Shown here piece by piece: positions 1,446 to 8,315 of a DNA stretch of 19,033 bases. How positions within the stretch are numbered: the stretch's first letter is position 1; every line of letters starts with the position of its first letter. A program made the position numbers and the translations under genes. The DNA comes from a virus (Duplodnaviria; Heunggongvirae; Uroviricota; Caudoviricetes). The stretch is from the IMG/VR virus record IMGVR_UViG_2681813004_000005, positions 1-19,033 of that record. One strand, given 5' to 3'. Below the pieces are notes generated by a model. The model saw only the letters and a program-made list of their open reading frames with translations. It was not told where the DNA came from and made no database searches.

Positions 1446-2006
1446 ATGAAAAATACCGATTTTGAAATCCGTACATCTGAACTGACCGCCAGCGATAAAA
1501 AACTGGTGGGTTATGCCGTTCGCTGGAACAGCCTTTCAGAAATTATCTGGGACGAATTCCGCGAACAGTTCACGCCGGGGGCTTTTGCTGACTATCTGGC
1601 GGCGGGTAATGATGTGCGCTGCCTGTATGAGCATGACTATACCCGACTGCTGGGGCGCACCAAATCCGGAACACTGGTACTGACTGAGGACAACACCGGG
1701 CTACGTTTTGAACTGACACCGCCTGATACCCAGCTTGGAAAAGATGTGCTTACGCTGGTGGAGCGTGGCGATATTACAGGAATGAGCTTTGGCTTTCGCG
1801 CATTATGCGAAGAATGGAATATCGCGCAAAAACCGTATCTGCGTACTGTTACCGCTGCAGAACTCAGGGAAATCACGATCACGTCGATGCCTGCTTATCC
1901 CGAATCTGGCGTGGAGATTGCCCACCGTTCGTTGTTTGCACAGCACCCTGAATTACGCCCGGCAGGAAATAATCGTCATCGCTGGGCTGAACTGGCGGGG
2001 TTGTGA
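1446..2006 (+). CDS. Prohead maturation protease, HK97 family
   Basis: First ATG of the 1230-2006 frame that has an RBS (GGAG about 10 nt upstream). Aligns with the protease ORF at 9728-10378. Position next to capsid and portal genes. Confidence 0.75.
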   Translation: MKNTDFEIRTSELTASDKKLVGYAVRWNSLSEIIWDEFREQFTPGAFADYLAAGNDVRCLYEHDYTRLLGRTKSGTLVLTEDNTGLRFELTPPDTQLGKDVLTLVERGDITGMSFGFRALCEEWNIAQKPYLRTVTAAELREITITSMPAYPESGVEIAHRSLFAQHPELRPAGNNRHRWAELAGL

Positions 2007-2007
2007 T

Positions 2008-3231
2008 ATGTGGTGGCCTTTTAGTCGTAAAAAAAGCGATCTGCGTAACCTGTCCATTGATGATTTTCTGGCGCTGTCCGGCGTACCGAATACCGGATCC
2101 GGAGAATATGTTTCTGCCGGGACGGCTGAATCATTGCCTGCTGTGATGAACGCGGTTTCTGTCATCGCTGAGGCGGTGGCCACGATGCCGTGTTATCTGT
2201 ATCTGGTACGTAATGACAAGGGCAGGGAGGCGCGGGAATGGCTGGACAGTCATCCGGTAGATATTCTGCTGAATGAGCAGCCTAATTCATGCCAGACACC
2301 TTACCAGTTTAAACGCACAATGATGCGTCACTGCCTGCTGAACGGTAACGCCTATGCGGTTATTGAGTGGGGGCAGGACGGGCAGCCAAAATCACTTCAT
2401 CCTTATGCGCCGGGGTGTGTTGTACCGGAACGCACAGGCGCACACAAATACCGATATACCATCACCGAACCCTATACAGGAACGGTGCGCACGTATTTAC
2501 AGGAAGAAGTTCTGCATCTCCGCTATGCCTCGGATGATGGCTTTCTGGGGCGTTCCCCCGTCACGATTTGCCGTGAGGCGCTGGGGCTTGGCCTTGCTCA
2601 ACAGCGTCACGGAGCCAGCATTATGAAAGATGGCATGATGGCGGCAGGGATTATCACGTCAGGCGAATGGCTGGACGGCGTGAAAGGTAAACAGGCATTA
2701 GACGCCCTGGAACGCTACAAGGGGGCGAAAAATGCCGGAAAAACGCCAATCCTTGAAGGGGGCATGGATTACAAGCAACTGGGGATGAGTAACCAGGATG
2801 CGGAATGGCTGGCCTCCCGTCGCTTCTCCATTGAAGACATCGCCCGGATGTTCAACGTGTCGCCTATTTTTCTGCAGGAATACAGCAACAGCACCTACAG
2901 CAATTTCAGTGAGGCAAGCCGCGCGTTTCTGACCATGACAATGCGTCCTTGGTTGGCGAACTTCGAACAGCAAATCAAGGCCGCTTTGCTGGTGGCTTCT
3001 CCCGTGCCTGGAACCCGTTATCTGGTTGAGTTTGATTCAGCCGATTTATTACGCGCCACCCCTACCGAACGTTACGCCACGTATGAGAAAGGGATTAAGA
3101 ACGGGATCATCAATCCGAACGAAGCCCGTGAGCGTGAGGGAATGCCGCCGCGTGAAGGTGGTGACGAGTTCAGCCAGGCATGGAAGCAGGAAGTGACAAT
3201 CAGCAAGAACAGTAAGGGCGGTGACGAATGA
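2008..3231 (+). CDS. Portal protein, HK97 family
   Basis: ATG at 2008, 2 nt after the protease stop. The track ORF from 1789 is an upstream artefact in the same frame. N-terminus MWWPFSRKKSD parallels MFFSGLFQRKSD of the second portal; shared C-terminal motifs (SIEDIARMFNV vs QLEEICRLFRV; NPNEAREREGMPPREGGDEF vs SPNDCRDLEDMNPRPGGDVY). Confidence 0.85.
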   Translation: MWWPFSRKKSDLRNLSIDDFLALSGVPNTGSGEYVSAGTAESLPAVMNAVSVIAEAVATMPCYLYLVRNDKGREAREWLDSHPVDILLNEQPNSCQTPYQFKRTMMRHCLLNGNAYAVIEWGQDGQPKSLHPYAPGCVVPERTGAHKYRYTITEPYTGTVRTYLQEEVLHLRYASDDGFLGRSPVTICREALGLGLAQQRHGASIMKDGMMAAGIITSGEWLDGVKGKQALDALERYKGAKNAGKTPILEGGMDYKQLGMSNQDAEWLASRRFSIEDIARMFNVSPIFLQEYSNSTYSNFSEASRAFLTMTMRPWLANFEQQIKAALLVASPVPGTRYLVEFDSADLLRATPTERYATYEKGIKNGIINPNEAREREGMPPREGGDEFSQAWKQEVTISKNSKGGDE

Positions 3232-3566
3232 TAGCCGGAAAGATGCGGGACCGGGTGACGATTATGACATTTACCACACAGCGCCTGCCGTCAGGTGCGA
3301 TCCAGCAGATATGGACGGAAGGGGAAACCCTCTGGGCAGAGGTCAAGGGGATCAGCGGACGGGAATTACTGACCGCAGGCGCAGAAACCGCACCTGCAAC
3401 GATTCGGGTATGGGTTCGCTATCGTGGCGACATATCCGCCGCCAGTCGCCTGAAAGTGCTTACCGGCGCTTTTGCCGGGAGCACGCTTAATATCATCGGG
3501 ATCCCCTTACCTGATGCGAAAAGAACCCGGCTGGAAATTCTGGCAAAGGTGGGTACAGAAAAATGA
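3228..3566 (+). CDS. Head-tail adaptor / head closure protein
   Basis: 112 aa. ATG overlaps the portal stop (ATGA). About 66 of 112 residues identical in an ungapped hand alignment to the ORF at 12163-12501, including the block WAEVKGISGRE and LKVLTGAF. Confidence 0.8.
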   Translation: MIAGKMRDRVTIMTFTTQRLPSGAIQQIWTEGETLWAEVKGISGRELLTAGAETAPATIRVWVRYRGDISAASRLKVLTGAFAGSTLNIIGIPLPDAKRTRLEILAKVGTEK

Positions 3567-3859
3567 CAGCAGAAAAAATAACCCTGGAAGAGGCCAAACT
3601 TCACTGCCGCATAGATGGTAACACAGAAGACACACTGATTCAGGCATACATAAGCGCGGCGCTGGAGGTATGCCAGAAGCATATTGGCAGGCGTTTTGAT
3701 GACGGCCTGGAATTTACCCCTGCAATAAAAATTGGTTGCCTGATGTACATCTCGCAACTGTACGAGTACCGGACAACGCTTGGCGATACCGATACAAAAG
3801 AAATTCCCCTGACGATTTCTGCGCTCTGGTCGGTTTATCGTGATGTGGGGGTGTACTGA
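3563..3859 (+). CDS. Head-tail connector, gp6-like
   Basis: 98 aa. ATGA overlap with the upstream gene. N-terminal TLEEAKLHCRID matches TLEELRVQCRID of the ORF at 11849-12154; weaker similarity further on. Confidence 0.7.
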   Translation: MTAEKITLEEAKLHCRIDGNTEDTLIQAYISAALEVCQKHIGRRFDDGLEFTPAIKIGCLMYISQLYEYRTTLGDTDTKEIPLTISALWSVYRDVGVY

Positions 3860-4299
3860 TGCCGTGGCAACCATTAAGGCGATGCACTGAGCCGGGCTGT
3901 AATAAGCGCGTGAAGTCCGGCAAGTGTGAAGAGCACAGGCGGGCTGCATGGCGTGCAGAGGATGCCAGACGGGGACACCGCCGCGCGCGCGGGTATTCCC
4001 GACAGTGGGACAAATACCGCGCCCTGTACCTGAGCAAAAACCCGTTATGCGTGCGTTGTCTGGCTAAGGGGATTTATACGCCAGCTCTTGTGGTGGATCA
4101 CATCATTCCCATCAATGGCGGCGGTGATGTTCTCTTCTGGCCTGAGTGGAACCACCAGGCATTGTGCCAGACGTGCCACAACCGTAAGACGACACGGGAA
4201 GACCCAGCCACGAAAGCGAACCGTAAGGCGGGTATGTATCGCGAGCAGGAAGAACGGGCGGCACACCGTAACGACTGGATGTATGGCGATGATGACTGA
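3859..4299 (+). CDS. HNH endonuclease, phage packaging-associated (HK97 gp74-like)
   Basis: 146 aa with Cys-rich N-terminus and HNH motif (DHIIP ... N ... CHNRKT). Sits immediately upstream of terS, as in HK97-type cos phages. Start overlaps the previous stop (TGATG). Confidence 0.8.
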   Translation: MPWQPLRRCTEPGCNKRVKSGKCEEHRRAAWRAEDARRGHRRARGYSRQWDKYRALYLSKNPLCVRCLAKGIYTPALVVDHIIPINGGGDVLFWPEWNHQALCQTCHNRKTTREDPATKANRKAGMYREQEERAAHRNDWMYGDDD

Positions 4300-4468
4300 A
4301 CAGGAGCAAAACAGGCTGATACGTGGACTGATAAGGCAGCGTGACTTATGGAAGACACAGGAGACAGGGCACAAAGCCAACAGGACAGGGCGCACAGAAC
4401 GCACCACAGCGAAGCGATTAACCGACCGTGACCGCGAGGTCATGGAATGTTTTCGCAATCGCTGGTGA
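4283..4468 (+). CDS. Hypothetical small Arg-rich protein (about 60 aa)
   Basis: 3' portion of the 4088-4468 frame beginning at ATG 4283 (or 4289/4292), overlapping the HNH stop. No recognisable motif. The 5' part of that frame overlaps HNH and is discounted. Confidence 0.3.
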   Translation: MAMMTEQEQNRLIRGLIRQRDLWKTQETGHKANRTGRTERTTAKRLTDRDREVMECFRNRW

Positions 4469-4587
4469 GGCCGTCAGAGGGGGTGGGGGAGGTTTTCAGG
4501 ACAAAACCGTCCCTGCCGGACACCGACCGCCTCCTCAAATTTTTGTGCACGGAAATTTTTTTGAAAATAATTGGGCGAAAAAAGAAC

Positions 4588-4944
4588 ATGGCAAGACCAC
4601 CAAAAGCCCCCGCTTACCTGGATGAAATCGCGGTCAGGCAGTGGAAGGAAAAATCGCGCCAGCTTTCCGGGCGGGAAGACCTTACCCCCGCCGACTGGAG
4701 CAATCTGGAGCTGTATTGCGTTAACTACTCCATATACCGCAAAGCCGTCGAAGACCTTGCCACGCGCGGGTTCAGCATTGTTAACAGTCAGGGCAGCGAG
4801 AGCAGAAACCCCGCCCTGAGCGCAAAGGCTGACGCTGAAAGAATAATGATCAAAATGGCTTCTTTGCTGGGTTTTGACCCGGTAAGCCGCCGCAGAAATC
4901 CACCGGAAACAGAGGAAGAGGACGAGCTTGACCGCCTGGCATGA
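4588..4944 (+). CDS. terS: Terminase small subunit, P27 family
   Basis: Internal ATG at 4588 gives N-terminus MARPPKAPAYLDE, typical of P27-family TerS. Sits between HNH and terL. The track ORF from 4447 is an upstream extension. Confidence 0.75.
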   Translation: MARPPKAPAYLDEIAVRQWKEKSRQLSGREDLTPADWSNLELYCVNYSIYRKAVEDLATRGFSIVNSQGSESRNPALSAKADAERIMIKMASLLGFDPVSRRRNPPETEEEDELDRLA

Positions 4945-6607
4945 GTACGCAGAAGGCGTAAAAAACGGCAAAATTACGGCCTGTAAACGACTGAAACAGG
5001 CCGTTAAACGGTATTTTTCTGACCTTGAAAACCCCCTTTACACGTTCGATCCGGAGGTCGTGGAGCGGTTTATTGCCTTTTCCAGGGTGTGTCCGCACGT
5101 AAAAGGCGCAATGCGCGGTAGCCCCATTGAGCTGGAGCCGTGGCAGCAGTTCGCCTTTGCGTGCATCCTGGGCTTTAAGGTTAAGGCCACCGGACGGCGC
5201 AAATACACCAGCGCATTCATTGAAGTGCCGCGAAAAAATGCCAAATCCACGGTCGCCGCTATCCTGGCTAACTGGTTTCTGGTTATGGAAAACGGGCAGC
5301 AGGATATTTACACCGCCGCCGTGAGTCGTGATCAGGCGCGGATCGTGTTTGATGATGCGCGTCAGATGTGCCTTTTATCCCGACCGTTACGAAAGCGGGT
5401 AAATATTCAGGCACACAAGGTGATACACCCGAAAACCAACAGCCTGTTAAAGCCACTGGCAGCAAAAGCGGCAACCATTGAGGGGACAAACCCGAGTCTT
5501 GCCATTGTGGATGAATATCACCTGCACCCAGACAACGGGGTTTATTCCGCGCTTGAACTGGGAATGGGGGCGCGTCCGGAGGGGTTATTATTTGCCATCA
5601 CCACATCGGGGAGCAACGTTGTTTCAGCCTGTAAACAACACTACGACTATTGCTGCCAGATACTGGATGGTGAAGAGGTGAACGAATCCATGTTCGTGCT
5701 GATTTACGAGCTGGATGATGAAAGCGAGGTTGACGATCCGGCGATGTGGATAAAGGCGAATCCAAATATCGATGTTTCCGTCGATCGTGAAAAACTGGCC
5801 TCAACCATCCAGAAAGCGCGGGGTATTCCGTCGCAGTGGGTGGAGATGATGACAAAGCGCTTTAATATCTGGTGTCAGGGGGCTACGCCGTGGATGGGTA
5901 ACGGTGCATGGGCTGAGTGTGCCGGAACGTTCGCGGAGGCGGATTTATACGGGCAGGAGTGCTACGCGGGGCTGGACTTATCATCAACCAGCGATATTTT
6001 TTCAACAAATGATATTTCAAGCGTGTGTTATGCCTTTCCGGTTGGTAAAACCATCATGCTGGTTTCCCGTCATTATCTGCCGGAGCAGCAGCTACAGAAT
6101 CCCGCCAATAAAAACCGCGCCATCTATCGCCAGTGGGCAAAATCGGGCTGGATACGCACAACGCCAGGCGACTGTATTGATTACGACCGTATCAGGGATG
6201 ACATCATGAAGGACGCGGAAAATTTTAATATCCGGCTGGTGGGCTTCGATACATGGAACGCCACGCACCTGATGACGCAGCTACAGGGCGCAGGATTTGA
6301 GGTGGAGCCGTTCCCGCAAACATACCTTCGTTTCAGTCCGGCGGCGAAATCGTTCGAAGTTTTTGTTAACCGGAAGGTGATTGTGCATCGTGGCGATCCG
6401 GTGCTGGCCTGGTCAATGAGTAATGTTGTGATGCAGAGTGACGCGAACGCCAATATCAAGCCGAACAAGAAAAAATCATCCAACAAGATAGACCCGAGCG
6501 TTGCGGCTCTGATGGCGTTTGGCACATTCCAGGCAGAGCATGAGGAATTTGCATTTGATATGAGCGACAGCCACAAAGAGCGACTTGCGGCGTTTGATGG
6601 GGTATGA
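4928..6607 (+). CDS. terL: Terminase large subunit (ATPase plus nuclease)
   Basis: 559 aa. The only in-frame start after the upstream stop is TTG at 4928, with a GAGGAAGAGG purine tract before it; overlaps the terS end. C-terminal half aligns with the terL remnant at 7572-8315. Confidence 0.85.
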   Translation: MTAWHEYAEGVKNGKITACKRLKQAVKRYFSDLENPLYTFDPEVVERFIAFSRVCPHVKGAMRGSPIELEPWQQFAFACILGFKVKATGRRKYTSAFIEVPRKNAKSTVAAILANWFLVMENGQQDIYTAAVSRDQARIVFDDARQMCLLSRPLRKRVNIQAHKVIHPKTNSLLKPLAAKAATIEGTNPSLAIVDEYHLHPDNGVYSALELGMGARPEGLLFAITTSGSNVVSACKQHYDYCCQILDGEEVNESMFVLIYELDDESEVDDPAMWIKANPNIDVSVDREKLASTIQKARGIPSQWVEMMTKRFNIWCQGATPWMGNGAWAECAGTFAEADLYGQECYAGLDLSSTSDIFSTNDISSVCYAFPVGKTIMLVSRHYLPEQQLQNPANKNRAIYRQWAKSGWIRTTPGDCIDYDRIRDDIMKDAENFNIRLVGFDTWNATHLMTQLQGAGFEVEPFPQTYLRFSPAAKSFEVFVNRKVIVHRGDPVLAWSMSNVVMQSDANANIKPNKKKSSNKIDPSVAALMAFGTFQAEHEEFAFDMSDSHKERLAAFDGV

Positions 6608-6888
6608 CGAGAATGAGCGAAACCGAACTACTAAAAATAATCCGCCGCGTTACCGGAATCAGCCAGGAAGCAGGCAAACAGGAGGCCACGCAGCCGGACA
6701 GCGTGATAGCCGAAAATTACGCGCGTGTGGTGGCTGAGGTGATGCGCCGTGACGGTATCGAGCTTAACGGCGTGGATATACGCACCAGAGTTCTGGAGTT
6801 GTTGTCATATCGTCGCCGCGTGGAGATGTACCAGGAGAAAGAAAAAATTACTTACCACTGGAAGAAGCCGGAGCGGTTACGACGTTAA
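6604..6888 (+). CDS. Hypothetical protein (94 aa), last gene of unit 1
   Basis: ATGA overlap with the terL stop suggests translational coupling. No motif recognised. Confidence 0.45.
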   Translation: MTRMSETELLKIIRRVTGISQEAGKQEATQPDSVIAENYARVVAEVMRRDGIELNGVDIRTRVLELLSYRRRVEMYQEKEKITYHWKKPERLRR

Positions 6889-6890
6889 CT

Positions 6891-6940
6891 TGTGGTGACA
6901 TACCGTGACGGAGAGTGACAACCAGTGACACACAGTGACA
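6891..6940. repeat. Five GTGAC(A/G) hexamers at exact 10-bp phasing; candidate protein-binding array (integrase arm-type, terminase or regulator sites)
   Basis: Read directly: GTGACA 6895, GTGACG 6905, GTGACA 6915, 6925, 6935, each preceded by a variable 4-mer. Starts 3 nt after the stop of the 6604-6888 ORF. Confidence 0.85.
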
Positions 6941-7001
6941 AAAAGACGGTATTTAAATAGAGTGGGTGTTTAATACCCCCCGTTTTTTTTCGTGTGGTGC
7001 A

Positions 7002-7016
7002 TGGTCAAAATGACCA
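7002..7016. promoter_or_regulatory. Perfect palindrome TGGTCA-AAA-TGACCA, operator-like
   Basis: Read directly; 6-bp arms, 3-bp spacer, preceded by a T8 run at 6983-6990. Confidence 0.5.
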
Positions 7017-7142
7017 CGGAGAAGATACGCACCGAAGCAGAACAATTACCGTAGGTTAAAGCGACAGTATTCACACCAGCAACCTGATTATCAATTTTCA
7101 GCCGTTCGGTGGCATCACTGGCCCCATTTTCCTGATGGGGTT

Positions 7143-7193
7143 GCGGGTTATTTTGGGGGTATTTGCGGGTTATTTTGAATGTCTCGCGGGTTA
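7143..7193. repeat. Three direct copies of GCGGGTTA at 21-22 bp spacing
   Basis: Copies at 7143, 7165, 7186; the first two sit in a longer unit TTTGCGGGTTATTTT. Confidence 0.85.
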
Positions 7194-7270
7194 CGCTTTG
7201 GCTAATATTCAAACGCATCATTTTTTAACGCATTGATATTAAAGAATAAAAAATACTTAGCAAGCGAAGA

Positions 7271-7295
7271 TAACCCGCTAACCCGCATAACCCGC
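7271..7295. repeat. Three tandem copies of TAACCCGC (reverse complement of GCGGGTTA) at 8-9 bp spacing
   Basis: Copies at 7271, 7279, 7288. With the 7143-7193 array they form an inverted pair around an AT-rich core of about 75 bp (7194-7270). Confidence 0.85.
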
Positions 7296-7571
7296 ACTGT
7301 TTTGTATATATATACGAAAAATTGCATTCAGGGGGGTGATCGAAATTTCTACTGCCTCTTATCTCTTTGAGTGCTCACCTCGTCAGATTGTTACACACAA
7401 GAAATAAAAAATGCTTCGCGATGGTAGGTCGAATCACTGTATCAAAAAACGGTGTGTATCAGCATTAAAACAATACAGATACGTGTATTGCGCTGTGTAT
7501 TGCTTGATGATTTATAAAGACTGTTTTTTCATGTTAAACGATTGATATACAGGTGATTTTAAAAAACTTGA

Positions 7572-8315
7572 AATATTCTTACCAAACACATGAATGTGTG
7601 GGTCACTGCCGAGTCTGCCTGGATGGACATGATTAAGTGGGAGAAATGCGAATACATTGCCCCACGACATGAGCTGAAAACGTATCCCATGTGGGTCGGC
7701 GTTGACCTTGCTCATAAGATTGATATCTGTGCGGCGGCAAAACTCTGGCGAACGGATAACGGGCATGTTCATGCCGATTTTAAATTCTGGCTCCCGGAAG
7801 GACGGCTGGAACGATGCTCGCGGCAGCAGGCAGAACTTTACCGGAAGTGGGCGGAGATGGATAAGCTGATTCTGACGGATGGTGATGTTATCGATCATGC
7901 TCAGATAAAAAGTGACTTACTGGAATGGATTGGTGGTGAAAACCTCAGGGAACTGGGATTTGACCCGTGGAGCGCGATGCAGTTCAGCCTGGCACTGGCT
8001 GAAGAAGGGATACCGCTGGTGGAGGTTCCGCAGACGGTTCGCAATCTGTCAGAGGCCATGAAGGAAACGGAATCACTGGTCTATGCCGGACGTTTCCATC
8101 ACAGCAATCATCCGGTCATGAACTGGATGATGTCTAACGTTACGGTAAAACCGGACAAAAACGACAATATCTTCCCGAATAAATCCACGCCGGAAGCCAA
8201 AATCGACGGCCCTGTTGCGATGTTTACAGCGATGAGCCGGATGCTGGTCAATGGTGGTGAACCGGAGCCGGATCTGTCTGAACATCTGGTCAGCGTGGGC
8301 ATCCGCTCGCTTTAA
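7572..8315 (+). pseudogene. terL: 5'-truncated terminase large subunit (C-terminal nuclease-domain remnant only)
   Basis: Frame is open only from 7572 (TGA at 7569-7571). The 241 aa from ATG 7590 align with the C-terminal part of the unit-1 TerL (LYRKWAEMDKLILTDGDVIDH vs IYRQWAKSGWIRTTPGDCIDY; HPVMNWMMSNV vs DPVLAWSMSNV). ATPase domain and upstream terS are absent; AT-rich non-coding DNA lies upstream. Confidence 0.8.

What the first reader, a model, noticed from the sequence alone, without database searches (positions are those of the whole stretch)
4300..4587. HNH-terS intergenic region is the expected cos location for unit 1
In HK97-type cos phages the cohesive-end site lies between the HNH gene and terS. 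Here that interval holds a 119-bp non-coding stretch (4469-4587) with a G-rich run (GGGGGTGGGGGAGG) and an A/T-rich segment, preceded by a possible 60-aa Arg-rich ORF. If this is cos, the packaged unit-1 genome would start at terS and end at HNH, with integrase and replication genes in the middle.
Basis: inference. Interest (0 to 1): 0.45.

Follow-up and report, generated by a model that had tools for sequence, protein, structure and literature searches.

The report
Cohesive-end (cos) site of a phage satellite

Summary
HNH is 3859-4299. A conserved 59-aa ORF is 4289-4468. A 119-bp non-coding stretch is 4469-4587, with GGGGGTGGGGGAGG at 4479-4492 and an A/T-rich half. terS is 4588-4944 and terL is 4928-6607.

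"Unit 1" is not a phage. It is a capsid-forming phage-inducible chromosomal island (cf-PICI), here embedded in the terL gene of an HK97-like prophage.

The cos interpretation is supported on three grounds.
- Two non-coding blocks (4478-4505, 4522-4569) are as conserved across cf-PICIs as codon positions 1 and 2.
- Four independent public linear assemblies of excised or packaged cf-PICI DNA break in or beside this interval, three with both ends inside or at its edges: vB_KppS-Ant (= KpCIDSM30104), two IMG/VR contigs and the tail of PQ569648.1.
- One 15,518-bp contig starts at CTCAAATTTTT and ends at ...GGCAC. Its ends are exactly 10 nt apart in 186 of 188 spanning relatives. HK97's 3' overhang is also 10 nt.

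The window equivalent is the overhang CGACCGCCTC (4524-4533), with +1 at 4534. The G-run (-55..-42) and T7 run (+23..+29) sit at nearly the same offsets as in HK97. Sequence similarity to HK97 cos is not significant, and TerS belongs to a different family (P27).

This is a new member of a known kind, of modest interest.

The parts
3859..4299 (+). HNH endonuclease, the gp74-like packaging accessory nuclease
   Evidence: Pfam HNH E 8.8e-10 and PHROG 144 E 3.6e-45. 36% identical to HK97 HNH gp74, E 6e-17. Matches PDB 5H0M, deposited as an HNH endonuclease, E 9e-16.
4289..4468 (+). Small Arg-rich ORF (59 aa), a conserved cf-PICI gene of unknown function and the last gene before cos
   Evidence: PHROG 3173 E 2.4e-29. 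RefSeq hypothetical protein. 42% identity to the KpCIDSM30104 homologue. Codon position 3 is less conserved than positions 1 and 2.
4469..4587 (.). Non-coding interval that holds the cos site
   Evidence: Sequence; conservation profile; ends of public linear assemblies.
4478..4505 (.). Conserved block A. It contains the G-run GGGGGTGGGGGAGG (4479-4492, -55..-42 from the cut) and the core of an imperfect palindrome, GGTTTT-CAGGAC-AAAACC (4491-4508); the repeat tool's arms are 4486-4496 and 4503-4513. Proposed upstream (end-side) cos element.
   Evidence: Conservation 0.93. The exact 20-mer occurs in more than 119 IMG/VR contigs. The inverted repeat is I3. HK97 has a G-run at -57..-43.
4506..4521 (.). 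Variable spacer
   Evidence: Conservation 0.70, like third codon positions.
4524..4533 (.). Predicted cohesive-end sequence CGACCGCCTC (family consensus CRCCYGCCCC). Inferred nicks are at 4533|4534 on the top strand and 4523|4524 on the bottom strand, giving a 10-nt 3' overhang.
   Evidence: Contig 3300022664_000095 ends at the base aligned to 4523 and starts at the base aligned to 4534. The gap is 10 nt in 186 of 188 spanning relatives. The HK97 overhang is 10 nt, 3' (PMC11331095, PMC9410871).
4534..4569 (+). Conserved block B downstream of the cut: CTCAAATTTTT, then GCACGG (4547-4552), the T7 run (4556-4562, +23..+29), then GAAAATAA. Candidate TerS-binding site (cosB-like).
   Evidence: Conservation 0.91 for 4522-4569. 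The minimal HK97 TerS site is +15..+29 and ends in a T-run that starts at +24. There are two A3T5-7 tracts 16 nt apart.
4588..4944 (+). Small terminase TerS, P27 family
   Evidence: Pfam Terminase_4 E 1.6e-23 and PHROG 83. No similarity to HK97 gp1. No solved homologue.
4928..6607 (+). Large terminase TerL, HK97 type
   Evidence: Pfam TerL_ATPase and TerL_nuclease. 27% identical to HK97 gp2, E 4e-47. The only PDB match is HK97 TerL 6Z6D, E 1e-40.

Best explanation
The interval 4469-4587 is the cos site of a capsid-forming PICI (cf-PICI).

Proposed sequence of events:
1. After excision and replication, the satellite's own terminase recognises this site on concatemers. The terminase is a P27-family TerS plus an HK97-type TerL, helped by the adjacent HNH nuclease.
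2. TerS most likely binds the conserved A/T-tract block just downstream of the cut (about 4547-4570: GCACGG, N3, T7, GAAAATAA).
3. TerL and HNH nick the two strands 10 nt apart in the C-rich decamer CGACCGCCTC (4524-4533). This leaves 10-nt 3' cohesive ends.
4. Packaging runs rightwards through terS, terL, the accessory genes, attP, int, the replication genes and the capsid genes. It ends after HNH and the small ORF at the next cos.
5. There the conserved G-rich block A (4478-4505) lies on the end side and is probably needed for the terminal cut.

Shown here: the anatomy, the selective conservation of the two blocks, and the positions of the ends of public linear assemblies. Inferred: the polarity of the overhang, which protein binds which block, and the role of block A.
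For: Identity of the element:
- Its genes are capsid, portal, Hc1, Ad1, HNH, terS and terL.
- Near-identical copies in E. coli genomes have int, primase, capsid, protease, portal, connector, HNH, ORF, terS and terL, and no tail genes. This is the cf-PICI layout of bioRxiv 10.1101/2022.09.08.507074.
- cf-PICI KpCIDSM30104 DNA has cohesive ends, shown by Southern blot (bioRxiv 10.1101/2025.02.11.637232).

Conservation:
- Two non-coding blocks are conserved like codon positions 1 and 2, while the spacer drifts like third positions.

Physical ends:
- (a) vB_KppS-Ant (LR881103.1) was assembled from lysate DNA of K. pneumoniae DSM 30104 with Nextera XT and SPAdes (PMC8006926). It is linear and permuted with int in the middle. 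It ends at ...GGTTTTCAGGAC (aligned to 4502) and starts 22 nt before the terS ATG. It lacks exactly 69 bp that are present in four spanning relatives, two of them near-identical.
- (b) IMG/VR contig 3300022664_000095 is 15,518 bp and has the full cf-PICI gene set with int internal. It starts at CTCAAATTTTTACGCACGG and ends at ...CAAGGCAC. The two ends are separated by exactly 10 nt in 186 of 188 spanning relatives.
- (c) The cf-PICI segment at the 3' end of PQ569648.1 runs from the terS start codon to 5 nt before the small-ORF stop.
- (d) IMG/VR contig 3300011242_000019 is permuted and ends 12 nt past the proposed cut.

HK97 parallel:
- HK97 has HNH, then cos, then terS, with terS starting at +50.
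- Its overhang is 10 nt, 3'. Its TerS site is at +15..+29 and ends in a T-run.
- Offsets here: the T7 run starts at +23 against +24 in HK97, the G-run is at -55..-42 against -57..-43, and the terS ATG is at +55 against +50.
- A loss of 10 nt, rather than a duplication, is what end-repair does to 3' overhangs.
Against: - No read-level terminus data were available. Contig ends are indirect, and the library methods for the two IMG/VR contigs are unknown.
- The contig ends are not all at one position. KppS-Ant loses 21 to 38 nt per end, which is plausible for tagmentation. Contig 3300011242 runs 12 nt past the proposed cut and starts inside terS.
- G- and C-homopolymers could contribute to assembly breaks.
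- Sequence similarity to HK97 cos is not significant. An nhmmer profile of the cf-PICI intergenic region does not find HK97 cos. Local alignment scores are reached by 87 of 1000 and 7 of 1000 shuffles.
- TerS is unrelated in sequence to HK97 gp1, so the TerS-site analogy rests on position only.
- None of the linear assemblies belongs to the window's own E. coli sub-lineage. The coordinates were transferred by alignment.
Confidence: 0.85

Rival explanations
1. The interval is cos, but the cut geometry differs from the proposed one. The overhang could be 5', have another length, or the nicks could lie a few bases away. The 10-nt gap would then be a coincidence of end trimming.
For: Only one contig gives the exact 10-nt gap. 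Its library chemistry is unknown. The other assemblies have ragged ends. A metagenome locus starts at +3, but it may be a storage-chunk boundary.
Against: The gap equals the HK97 overhang length. The gap is the conserved C-rich decamer, matching the C-rich HK97 overhang CGCCGCCAAA. TerL and HNH are HK97 homologues. A 5' overhang would be filled in and duplicated at both contig ends, not lost.
Confidence: 0.1
2. The conserved blocks are transcription or translation signals for terS-terL (promoter, terminator, leader), and cos lies elsewhere, for example in 6890-7300.
For: The interval precedes an operon and is A/T-rich near terS. A weak terminator-like hairpin sits at the end of the small ORF. 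GTGAC repeats with 10-bp spacing lie at 6890-6940.
Against: No plus-strand sigma-70-like promoter was found and there is no Rfam match. The single-strand fold is not unusual, z -1.3. All linear assemblies break here and none breaks downstream of terL. Window 6616-7140 is absent from an otherwise near-identical cf-PICI copy that keeps the same intergenic region.
Confidence: 0.03
3. The contig ends are assembly artefacts caused by G/C homopolymers, and the element packages by a headful (pac) mechanism.
For: The G-run, the C-run and the T7 run are hard for short-read chemistry. Two of the four assemblies have imprecise ends.
Against: Cohesive ends were seen experimentally for KpCIDSM30104. Two assemblies are unit-length, non-redundant contigs of about 15.5-16.5 kb with no terminal overlap, and a third is only about 240 bp short of unit length. 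Hundreds of integrated copies assemble straight through this region. In the literature read here, HNH next to the terminase genes is described for cos phages (PMC3592412 abstract).
Confidence: 0.02

Closest known systems
HK97 cos site (HNH gp74-assisted, 10-nt 3' overhang; TerS gp1 site at +15..+29)
   Same: - The gene order is HNH, cos, terS, terL.
- TerL and HNH are homologous (27% identity with E 4e-47; 36% identity with E 6e-17).
- The distance between ends is 10 nt.
- The cohesive decamer is C-rich.
- A G-run lies about 55 to 42 nt upstream.
- A T7 tract starts at +23 here and +24 in HK97.
- terS starts about 50-60 nt after the cut.
   Different: - TerS is of the P27 (Terminase_4) family and has no detectable similarity to gp1.
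- DNA sequence similarity of the two cos regions is not significant.
- The element is a 15-16 kb satellite with no tail genes.
- An extra small ORF sits between HNH and cos.
cf-PICIs (EcCIEDL933, KpCIDSM30104; Alqurainy et al. 2022/23, He et al. 2025)
   Same: Same gene set and order. KpCIDSM30104 is the element sequenced as vB_KppS-Ant. Its TerS is 85% identical to the window's, and its intergenic blocks A and B are shared.
   Different: The texts held here say that cf-PICIs use cos, HNH, TerS and TerL, and that they have cohesive ends. They do not give the position or sequence of cos. The nucleotide-level placement here comes from public assemblies. The window's copy is embedded in a prophage terL gene.
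cos region of the resident HK97-like prophage (the HNH-terS interval of the prophage that the satellite interrupts; L355 2662-2808)
   Same: It has the same three-part layout of G-run, C-rich ACCGCCGCC and T7 before a P27-family terS. Its upstream half is significantly similar to HK97 cos: score 20 against a maximum of 13 in 1000 shuffles.
   Different: It is only marginally similar to the cf-PICI interval (10 of 1000 shuffles). Its TerS is 27% identical to the satellite's. This fits separate, mutually exclusive packaging specificities, which is an inference.
Lambda cos (cosQ-cosN-cosB, 12-nt 5' overhang, Nu1/gpA, IHF)
   Same: The logic is the same: a nick site flanked by an upstream element and a downstream TerS-binding element next to the terminase genes. 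This comparison rests on general knowledge of lambda.
   Different: There is no Nu1/gpA-type terminase. An HNH nuclease is present. The inferred overhang is 3' and 10 nt, not 5' and 12 nt.

Membership tests
HK97-type HNH-assisted 3'-cos packaging site | The site lies immediately upstream of terS-terL and downstream of an HNH endonuclease gene | tested here: met
   HNH 3859-4299, interval 4469-4587, terS 4588, terL 4928. HK97 has HNH 39054-39413, cos at 39732/1 and terS at 50.
HK97-type HNH-assisted 3'-cos packaging site | TerL homologous to HK97 gp2 and HNH homologous to gp74 | tested here: met
   TerL has 27% identity, E 4e-47, and PDB 6Z6D is its only hit. HNH has 36% identity, E 6e-17.
HK97-type HNH-assisted 3'-cos packaging site | Fixed genome ends at the site | tested here: met
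   Four independent linear assemblies break in or beside the interval (three with both ends inside or at its edges), and one gives a precise pair of ends. This rests on assemblies, not on reads.
HK97-type HNH-assisted 3'-cos packaging site | 10-nt single-stranded 3' overhang | tested here: inconclusive
   The 10-nt length is supported by the 10-nt gap in 186 of 188 comparisons. The 3' polarity is inferred only from loss of the decamer rather than its duplication.
HK97-type HNH-assisted 3'-cos packaging site | TerS-binding site with an A/T tract about 15-29 nt downstream of the cut | tested here: inconclusive
   A conserved GCACGG-N3-T7 lies at +14..+29, against the HK97 site at +15..+29. Binding itself cannot be tested with these tools.
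HK97-type HNH-assisted 3'-cos packaging site | TerS homologous to HK97 gp1 | tested here: not met
   BLASTP E 4.0. gp1 has no Pfam family, whereas the window's TerS is Terminase_4 (P27).
Capsid-forming PICI (cf-PICI) | The packaging module is capsid, protease, portal, connectors, HNH, terS, terL, with no tail or lysis genes | tested here: met
   Window genes. Near-identical full copies are L003 and L355.
Capsid-forming PICI (cf-PICI) | int, a regulator and primase/replication genes upstream; size 10-18 kb | tested here: met
   These genes lie outside the window. They are present in copies that match the window at about 97-99.5% identity over the shared regions. Linear forms are 15.5-16.5 kb.
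Capsid-forming PICI (cf-PICI) | Helper-dependent induction and use of helper tails | not testable with these tools
   Experimental property, shown for relatives in the cited preprints.
Lambda-type cos | Nu1/gpA terminase and a 12-nt 5' overhang | tested here: not met
   The terminase families are Terminase_4, TerL_ATPase and TerL_nuclease. The decamer is lost from the contig ends, not duplicated.

The most novel reading that the evidence does not exclude
The satellite's cos is a diverged HK97-type site with three parts: a G-run element, a 10-nt C-rich 3' overhang and a TerS A-tract site. Its recognition blocks have drifted away from those of the HK97-like prophage in whose terL gene it sits. 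The two would therefore package in a mutually exclusive way. In this reading the cf-PICI-specific Arg-rich 59-aa protein encoded right at the genome end (4289-4468) is a fourth, so far unrecognised packaging-specificity factor that acts at block A.
Probability: 0.15. Interest if true: 0.55.

Novelty: new member of a known kind. Interest (0 to 1): 0.33.

Why it matters
- Knowing the exact cos sequence of cf-PICIs gives a minimal packaging signal for building cosmid-like vectors that are packaged into satellite capsids.
- It allows specific tests of why satellite and helper packaging are mutually exclusive.
- It gives a simple sequence marker (block A, then CRCCYGCCCC, then CTCAAATTTTT) for recognising packaged cf-PICI genomes in viromes.
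- It does not change the current picture of HNH-assisted cos packaging.

Tried and rejected
- Profile search for homology to HK97 cos. An nhmmer profile of the cf-PICI intergenic region was run against circularised HK97. It did not hit cos; the best E-value was 1.2, elsewhere in the genome. Pairwise alignments were at or near chance. I therefore claim only a positional resemblance.
- RNA element. Rfam gave nothing, and the single-strand fold has z -1.3.
- Promoter or terminator. There is no plus-strand promoter-like site. One weak terminator-like hairpin lies inside the small ORF.
- Alternative cos at 6890-7300. The 5 x GTGAC repeats lie in a segment (6616-7140) missing from a near-identical copy. 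No linear assembly breaks there.
- Metagenome scan for more contigs starting at +1. Of 61 loci, only L363 starts near the cut, at +3. I could not tell a contig end from a storage boundary. A true storage boundary was seen inside this same interval for another contig (L096/L419). L363 is therefore not counted as evidence.
- A second IMG/VR scan with block B gave no new terminal contigs among the rows shown.
- att core of the satellite. Only an 11-nt repeat, CTGTGTATTGC, was found. This was not pursued.
- TerS structure prediction was not run. It would have needed the expensive homologue search and does not bear on where cos is.

Full report
**What is at the coordinates**

- The HNH gene is 3859-4299.
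- A 59-aa Arg-rich ORF at 4289-4468 overlaps the HNH stop.
- A non-coding stretch of exactly 119 bp is 4469-4587.
- terS is 4588-4944 and terL is 4928-6607.
- GGGGGTGGGGGAGG is at 4479-4492 and is unique in the window.
- From about 4537 the interval is A/T-rich and contains a T7 run at 4556-4562.

Pfam and PHROG scans identify the following genes.
- Major capsid protein, 251-1396.
- Portal, within 1789-3231.
- Head closure, 3228-3566.
- Head-tail adaptor, 3563-3859.
- HNH.
- TerS, of the Terminase_4 (P27) family.
- TerL, with TerL_ATPase and TerL_nuclease domains.

The small ORF is a real family. It matches PHROG 3173 at E 2.4e-29, and RefSeq annotates it as a hypothetical protein.

**What "unit 1" is**

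The HNH-terS stretch occurs in 517 of 5426 complete E. coli genomes.

In strain TUM9757 the element runs int, regulators, primase, capsid, protease, portal, connector, HNH, small ORF, terS, terL. It has no tail genes and lies between cspD/yljB and clpS. This is the layout of capsid-forming PICIs (cf-PICIs) described in bioRxiv 10.1101/2022.09.08.507074.

The window's own arrangement is found in 24 or more genomes. In ETEC1749 the cf-PICI sits inside the terL gene of an HK97-like prophage and points the same way. The prophage terL N-terminal part lies upstream of the satellite's int. The C-terminal part (window 7590-8315) lies downstream and is followed by the prophage's portal, protease, capsid and tail genes, which are "unit 2".

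**Conservation**

I compared 60 distinct copies that were retrieved through TerS, so they were not selected on the DNA motif. The score is the mean over alignment columns of the summed squared base frequencies.

| Region | Conservation |
|---|---|
| Block 4478-4505 | 0.93 |
| Block 4522-4569 | 0.91 |
| Codon positions 1 and 2 of HNH and terS | 0.89-0.96 |
| Third codon positions | 0.68-0.75 |
| Spacer 4506-4521 | 0.70 |
| 4570-4587 | 0.67 |

Two discrete non-coding blocks are therefore under purifying selection, while the sequence between and after them drifts. The family consensus reads as follows:
- GGGGTGGGGGAGGTTTTCAGGAC(A/G)AA;
- about 20 variable nt;
- CRCCYGCCCC;
- CTCAAATTTTT, NN, GCACGG, NNN, TTTTTTT, GAAAATAA.

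**Physical ends**

*vB_KppS-Ant.* The 16,548-bp GenBank record LR881103.1 ("vB_KppS-Ant") came from a lysate on K. pneumoniae DSM 30104. It was sequenced with Nextera XT and assembled with SPAdes. It was reported as more than 99% identical to a region of that host's genome (PMC8006926). That strain carries cf-PICI KpCIDSM30104. This element is packaged very efficiently into tail-less capsids and shows cohesive-end concatemers on Southern blots (bioRxiv 10.1101/2025.02.11.637232).
- The record is linear and permuted relative to the integrated form. Its order is terS, terL..., int..., primase, capsid, portal, HNH, small ORF.
- It ends at ...GGTTTTCAGGAC, which aligns to window 4502.
- It begins 22 nt before the terS ATG.
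- In four relatives that span the junction (two of them 99.5% identical on both sides), exactly 69 bp lie between those two ends.
- Loss of a few tens of bases from each physical end is what tagmentation libraries produce. This last point is my own knowledge, not a tool result.

*IMG/VR contig 3300022664_000095.* This contig is 15,518 bp. I recovered both of its true ends.
- It carries terS, terL, int, antirepressor, primase, capsid, portal and HNH, and no host DNA.
- It starts with CTCAAATTTTTACGCACGGTGATTTTTTTGAAAATAA and ends with ...CAGGACAAAACCCAAGCCGCAAGGCAC. The two ends do not overlap.
- In 186 of 188 relatives that span the junction, the two ends are separated by exactly 10 nt, with consensus CRCCYGCCCC.
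- In the alignment the contig's end maps to window 4523 and its start to 4534. The missing decamer is CGACCGCCTC, 4524-4533.

*Two less precise assemblies.*
- The last 15.9 kb of PQ569648.1 is a cos-permuted cf-PICI. It runs from the terS start codon to 5 nt before the small-ORF stop.
- IMG/VR contig 3300011242_000019 (16,257 bp) is also permuted. It ends at ...CTCAAATTTTTA and starts inside terS.

Four independent assemblies thus break in or beside this roughly 120-bp interval of a 15-16 kb element, three of them with both ends inside it or at its edges. None breaks anywhere else.

**Comparison with HK97**

The HK97 record has HNH at 39054-39413, the genome end at 39732|1, and terS from position 50. 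HK97 ends carry 10-nt 3' overhangs. The minimal TerS-binding site is +15..+29 (CTAACCCGATTTTTT), with an essential A/T tract (PMC11331095 and PMC9410871).

With +1 set at 4534 from the contig ends, the window compares with HK97 as follows.

| Feature | Window | HK97 |
|---|---|---|
| T7 run starts at | +23 | +24 |
| G-run | -55..-42 | -57..-43 |
| Decamer before the cut | CGACCGCCTC | CGCCGCCAAA |
| terS ATG | +55 | +50 |

- TerL is 27% identical to HK97 gp2 (E 4e-47), and HNH is 36% identical to gp74 (E 6e-17). The only solved structure related to this TerL is HK97 TerL, 6Z6D.
- The DNA similarity of the two cos regions is not statistically significant.
- TerS is unrelated in sequence to gp1.

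I therefore call this a site that works like HK97 cos and shares its architecture. I do not call it a demonstrable sequence homologue.

The resident prophage's own HNH-terS interval has the same three-part layout. Its upstream half is significantly similar to HK97 cos.

**Mechanism proposed**

1. TerS binds the conserved downstream block (GCACGG-N3-T7-GAAAATAA, about 4547-4570).
2. TerL and HNH nick at 4533|4534 on the top strand and 4523|4524 on the bottom strand. This gives a 10-nt 3' overhang.
3. DNA enters the capsid starting with terS and ending with HNH and the small ORF.
4. The G-rich block A lies at the genome's right end and probably serves the terminal cut.

The 3' polarity is inferred. 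The decamer is missing from the contig rather than present at both ends, and end-repair removes 3' overhangs. The protein-to-DNA assignments are inferred from the HK97 work.

**Rivals considered**

- Different cut geometry. This remains possible (about 0.1), because only one contig gives precise ends.
- Regulatory element, with cos elsewhere. There is no promoter-like site on the plus strand, no Rfam hit and no unusual fold.
- Assembly artefact plus headful packaging. This conflicts with the published cohesive ends and with the unit-length, non-redundant contigs. Hundreds of integrated copies also assemble straight through the region.

**Novelty and verdict**

It is already stated in the literature that cf-PICIs use cos-type packaging with HNH, TerS and TerL. 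In the texts I could read, the position and sequence of the site are not given.

Placing the site at 4524-4534, and defining its two conserved flanking blocks, is an incremental result obtained from public assemblies. The finding is a new member of a known kind and of modest interest.

Noticed in passing
window 7590-8315 and upstream; L355 (NZ_CP122712.1) 2311-20496: The cf-PICI is integrated inside the terL gene of an HK97-like prophage and points the same way. The prophage terL N-terminal part lies upstream of the satellite's int. The C-terminal part is window 7590-8315 and is followed by the prophage's portal, protease, capsid and tail genes. This is the 'helper-embedded PICI' configuration of Mageeney et al. 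2023 (PMC10111431), here with a capsid-forming PICI in an HK97-type terL. At least 24 complete E. coli genomes hold at least 80% of the window.
   Followed up: partly
L355 2662-2808: The resident prophage's own HNH-terS interval has a G-run, ACCGCCGCC and a T7 run. Its upstream half is significantly similar to HK97 cos (score 20 against a maximum of 13 in 1000 shuffles). It is probably that prophage's cos, now separated from its split terL.
   Followed up: partly
window 6890-6940: There are five GTGAC motifs at exact 10-bp spacing just after the PHROG 1561 ORF (6604-6888). The whole segment 6616-7140 is missing from the otherwise near-identical copy in ETEC1749, so it is a variable accessory region. 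The function of the repeats is unknown.
   Followed up: partly
window 7120-7300 and 7200-7600: GCGGGTTAT / ATAACCCGC motifs are repeated in both orientations in an AT-rich stretch (GC down to 0.35) next to the satellite's right junction. They may be integrase or excisionase arm sites. The only direct repeat found between the two junctions is an 11-nt sequence, CTGTGTATTGC, at window 7493.
   Followed up: no
L001 (LR881103.1) whole record; L001 2036-4333: vB_KppS-Ant was described in its paper as a filamentous ssDNA phage, but it is the cf-PICI KpCIDSM30104. It carries a 765-aa ORF after terL that is annotated as a tape measure protein. About 800 nt of that ORF are 78-80% identical to phage tape-measure genes, which is odd for an element defined by lacking tail genes.
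   Followed up: no
PQ569648.1 90645-106503 (L472, L473): The 106.5-kb record 'Klebsiella phage P12620-1' ends with a complete cos-permuted cf-PICI. It is joined to unrelated sequence exactly at the terS start codon. This is probably a chimeric assembly of a phage and a co-packaged satellite.
   Followed up: partly
window 4289-4468: The small Arg-rich ORF (PHROG 3173) sits between HNH and cos in cf-PICIs. It has no counterpart at that position in the resident prophage, and no similar one in HK97. Its C-terminal motif RDRE-x-x-ECFRNR is conserved. Its function is unknown.
   Followed up: partly
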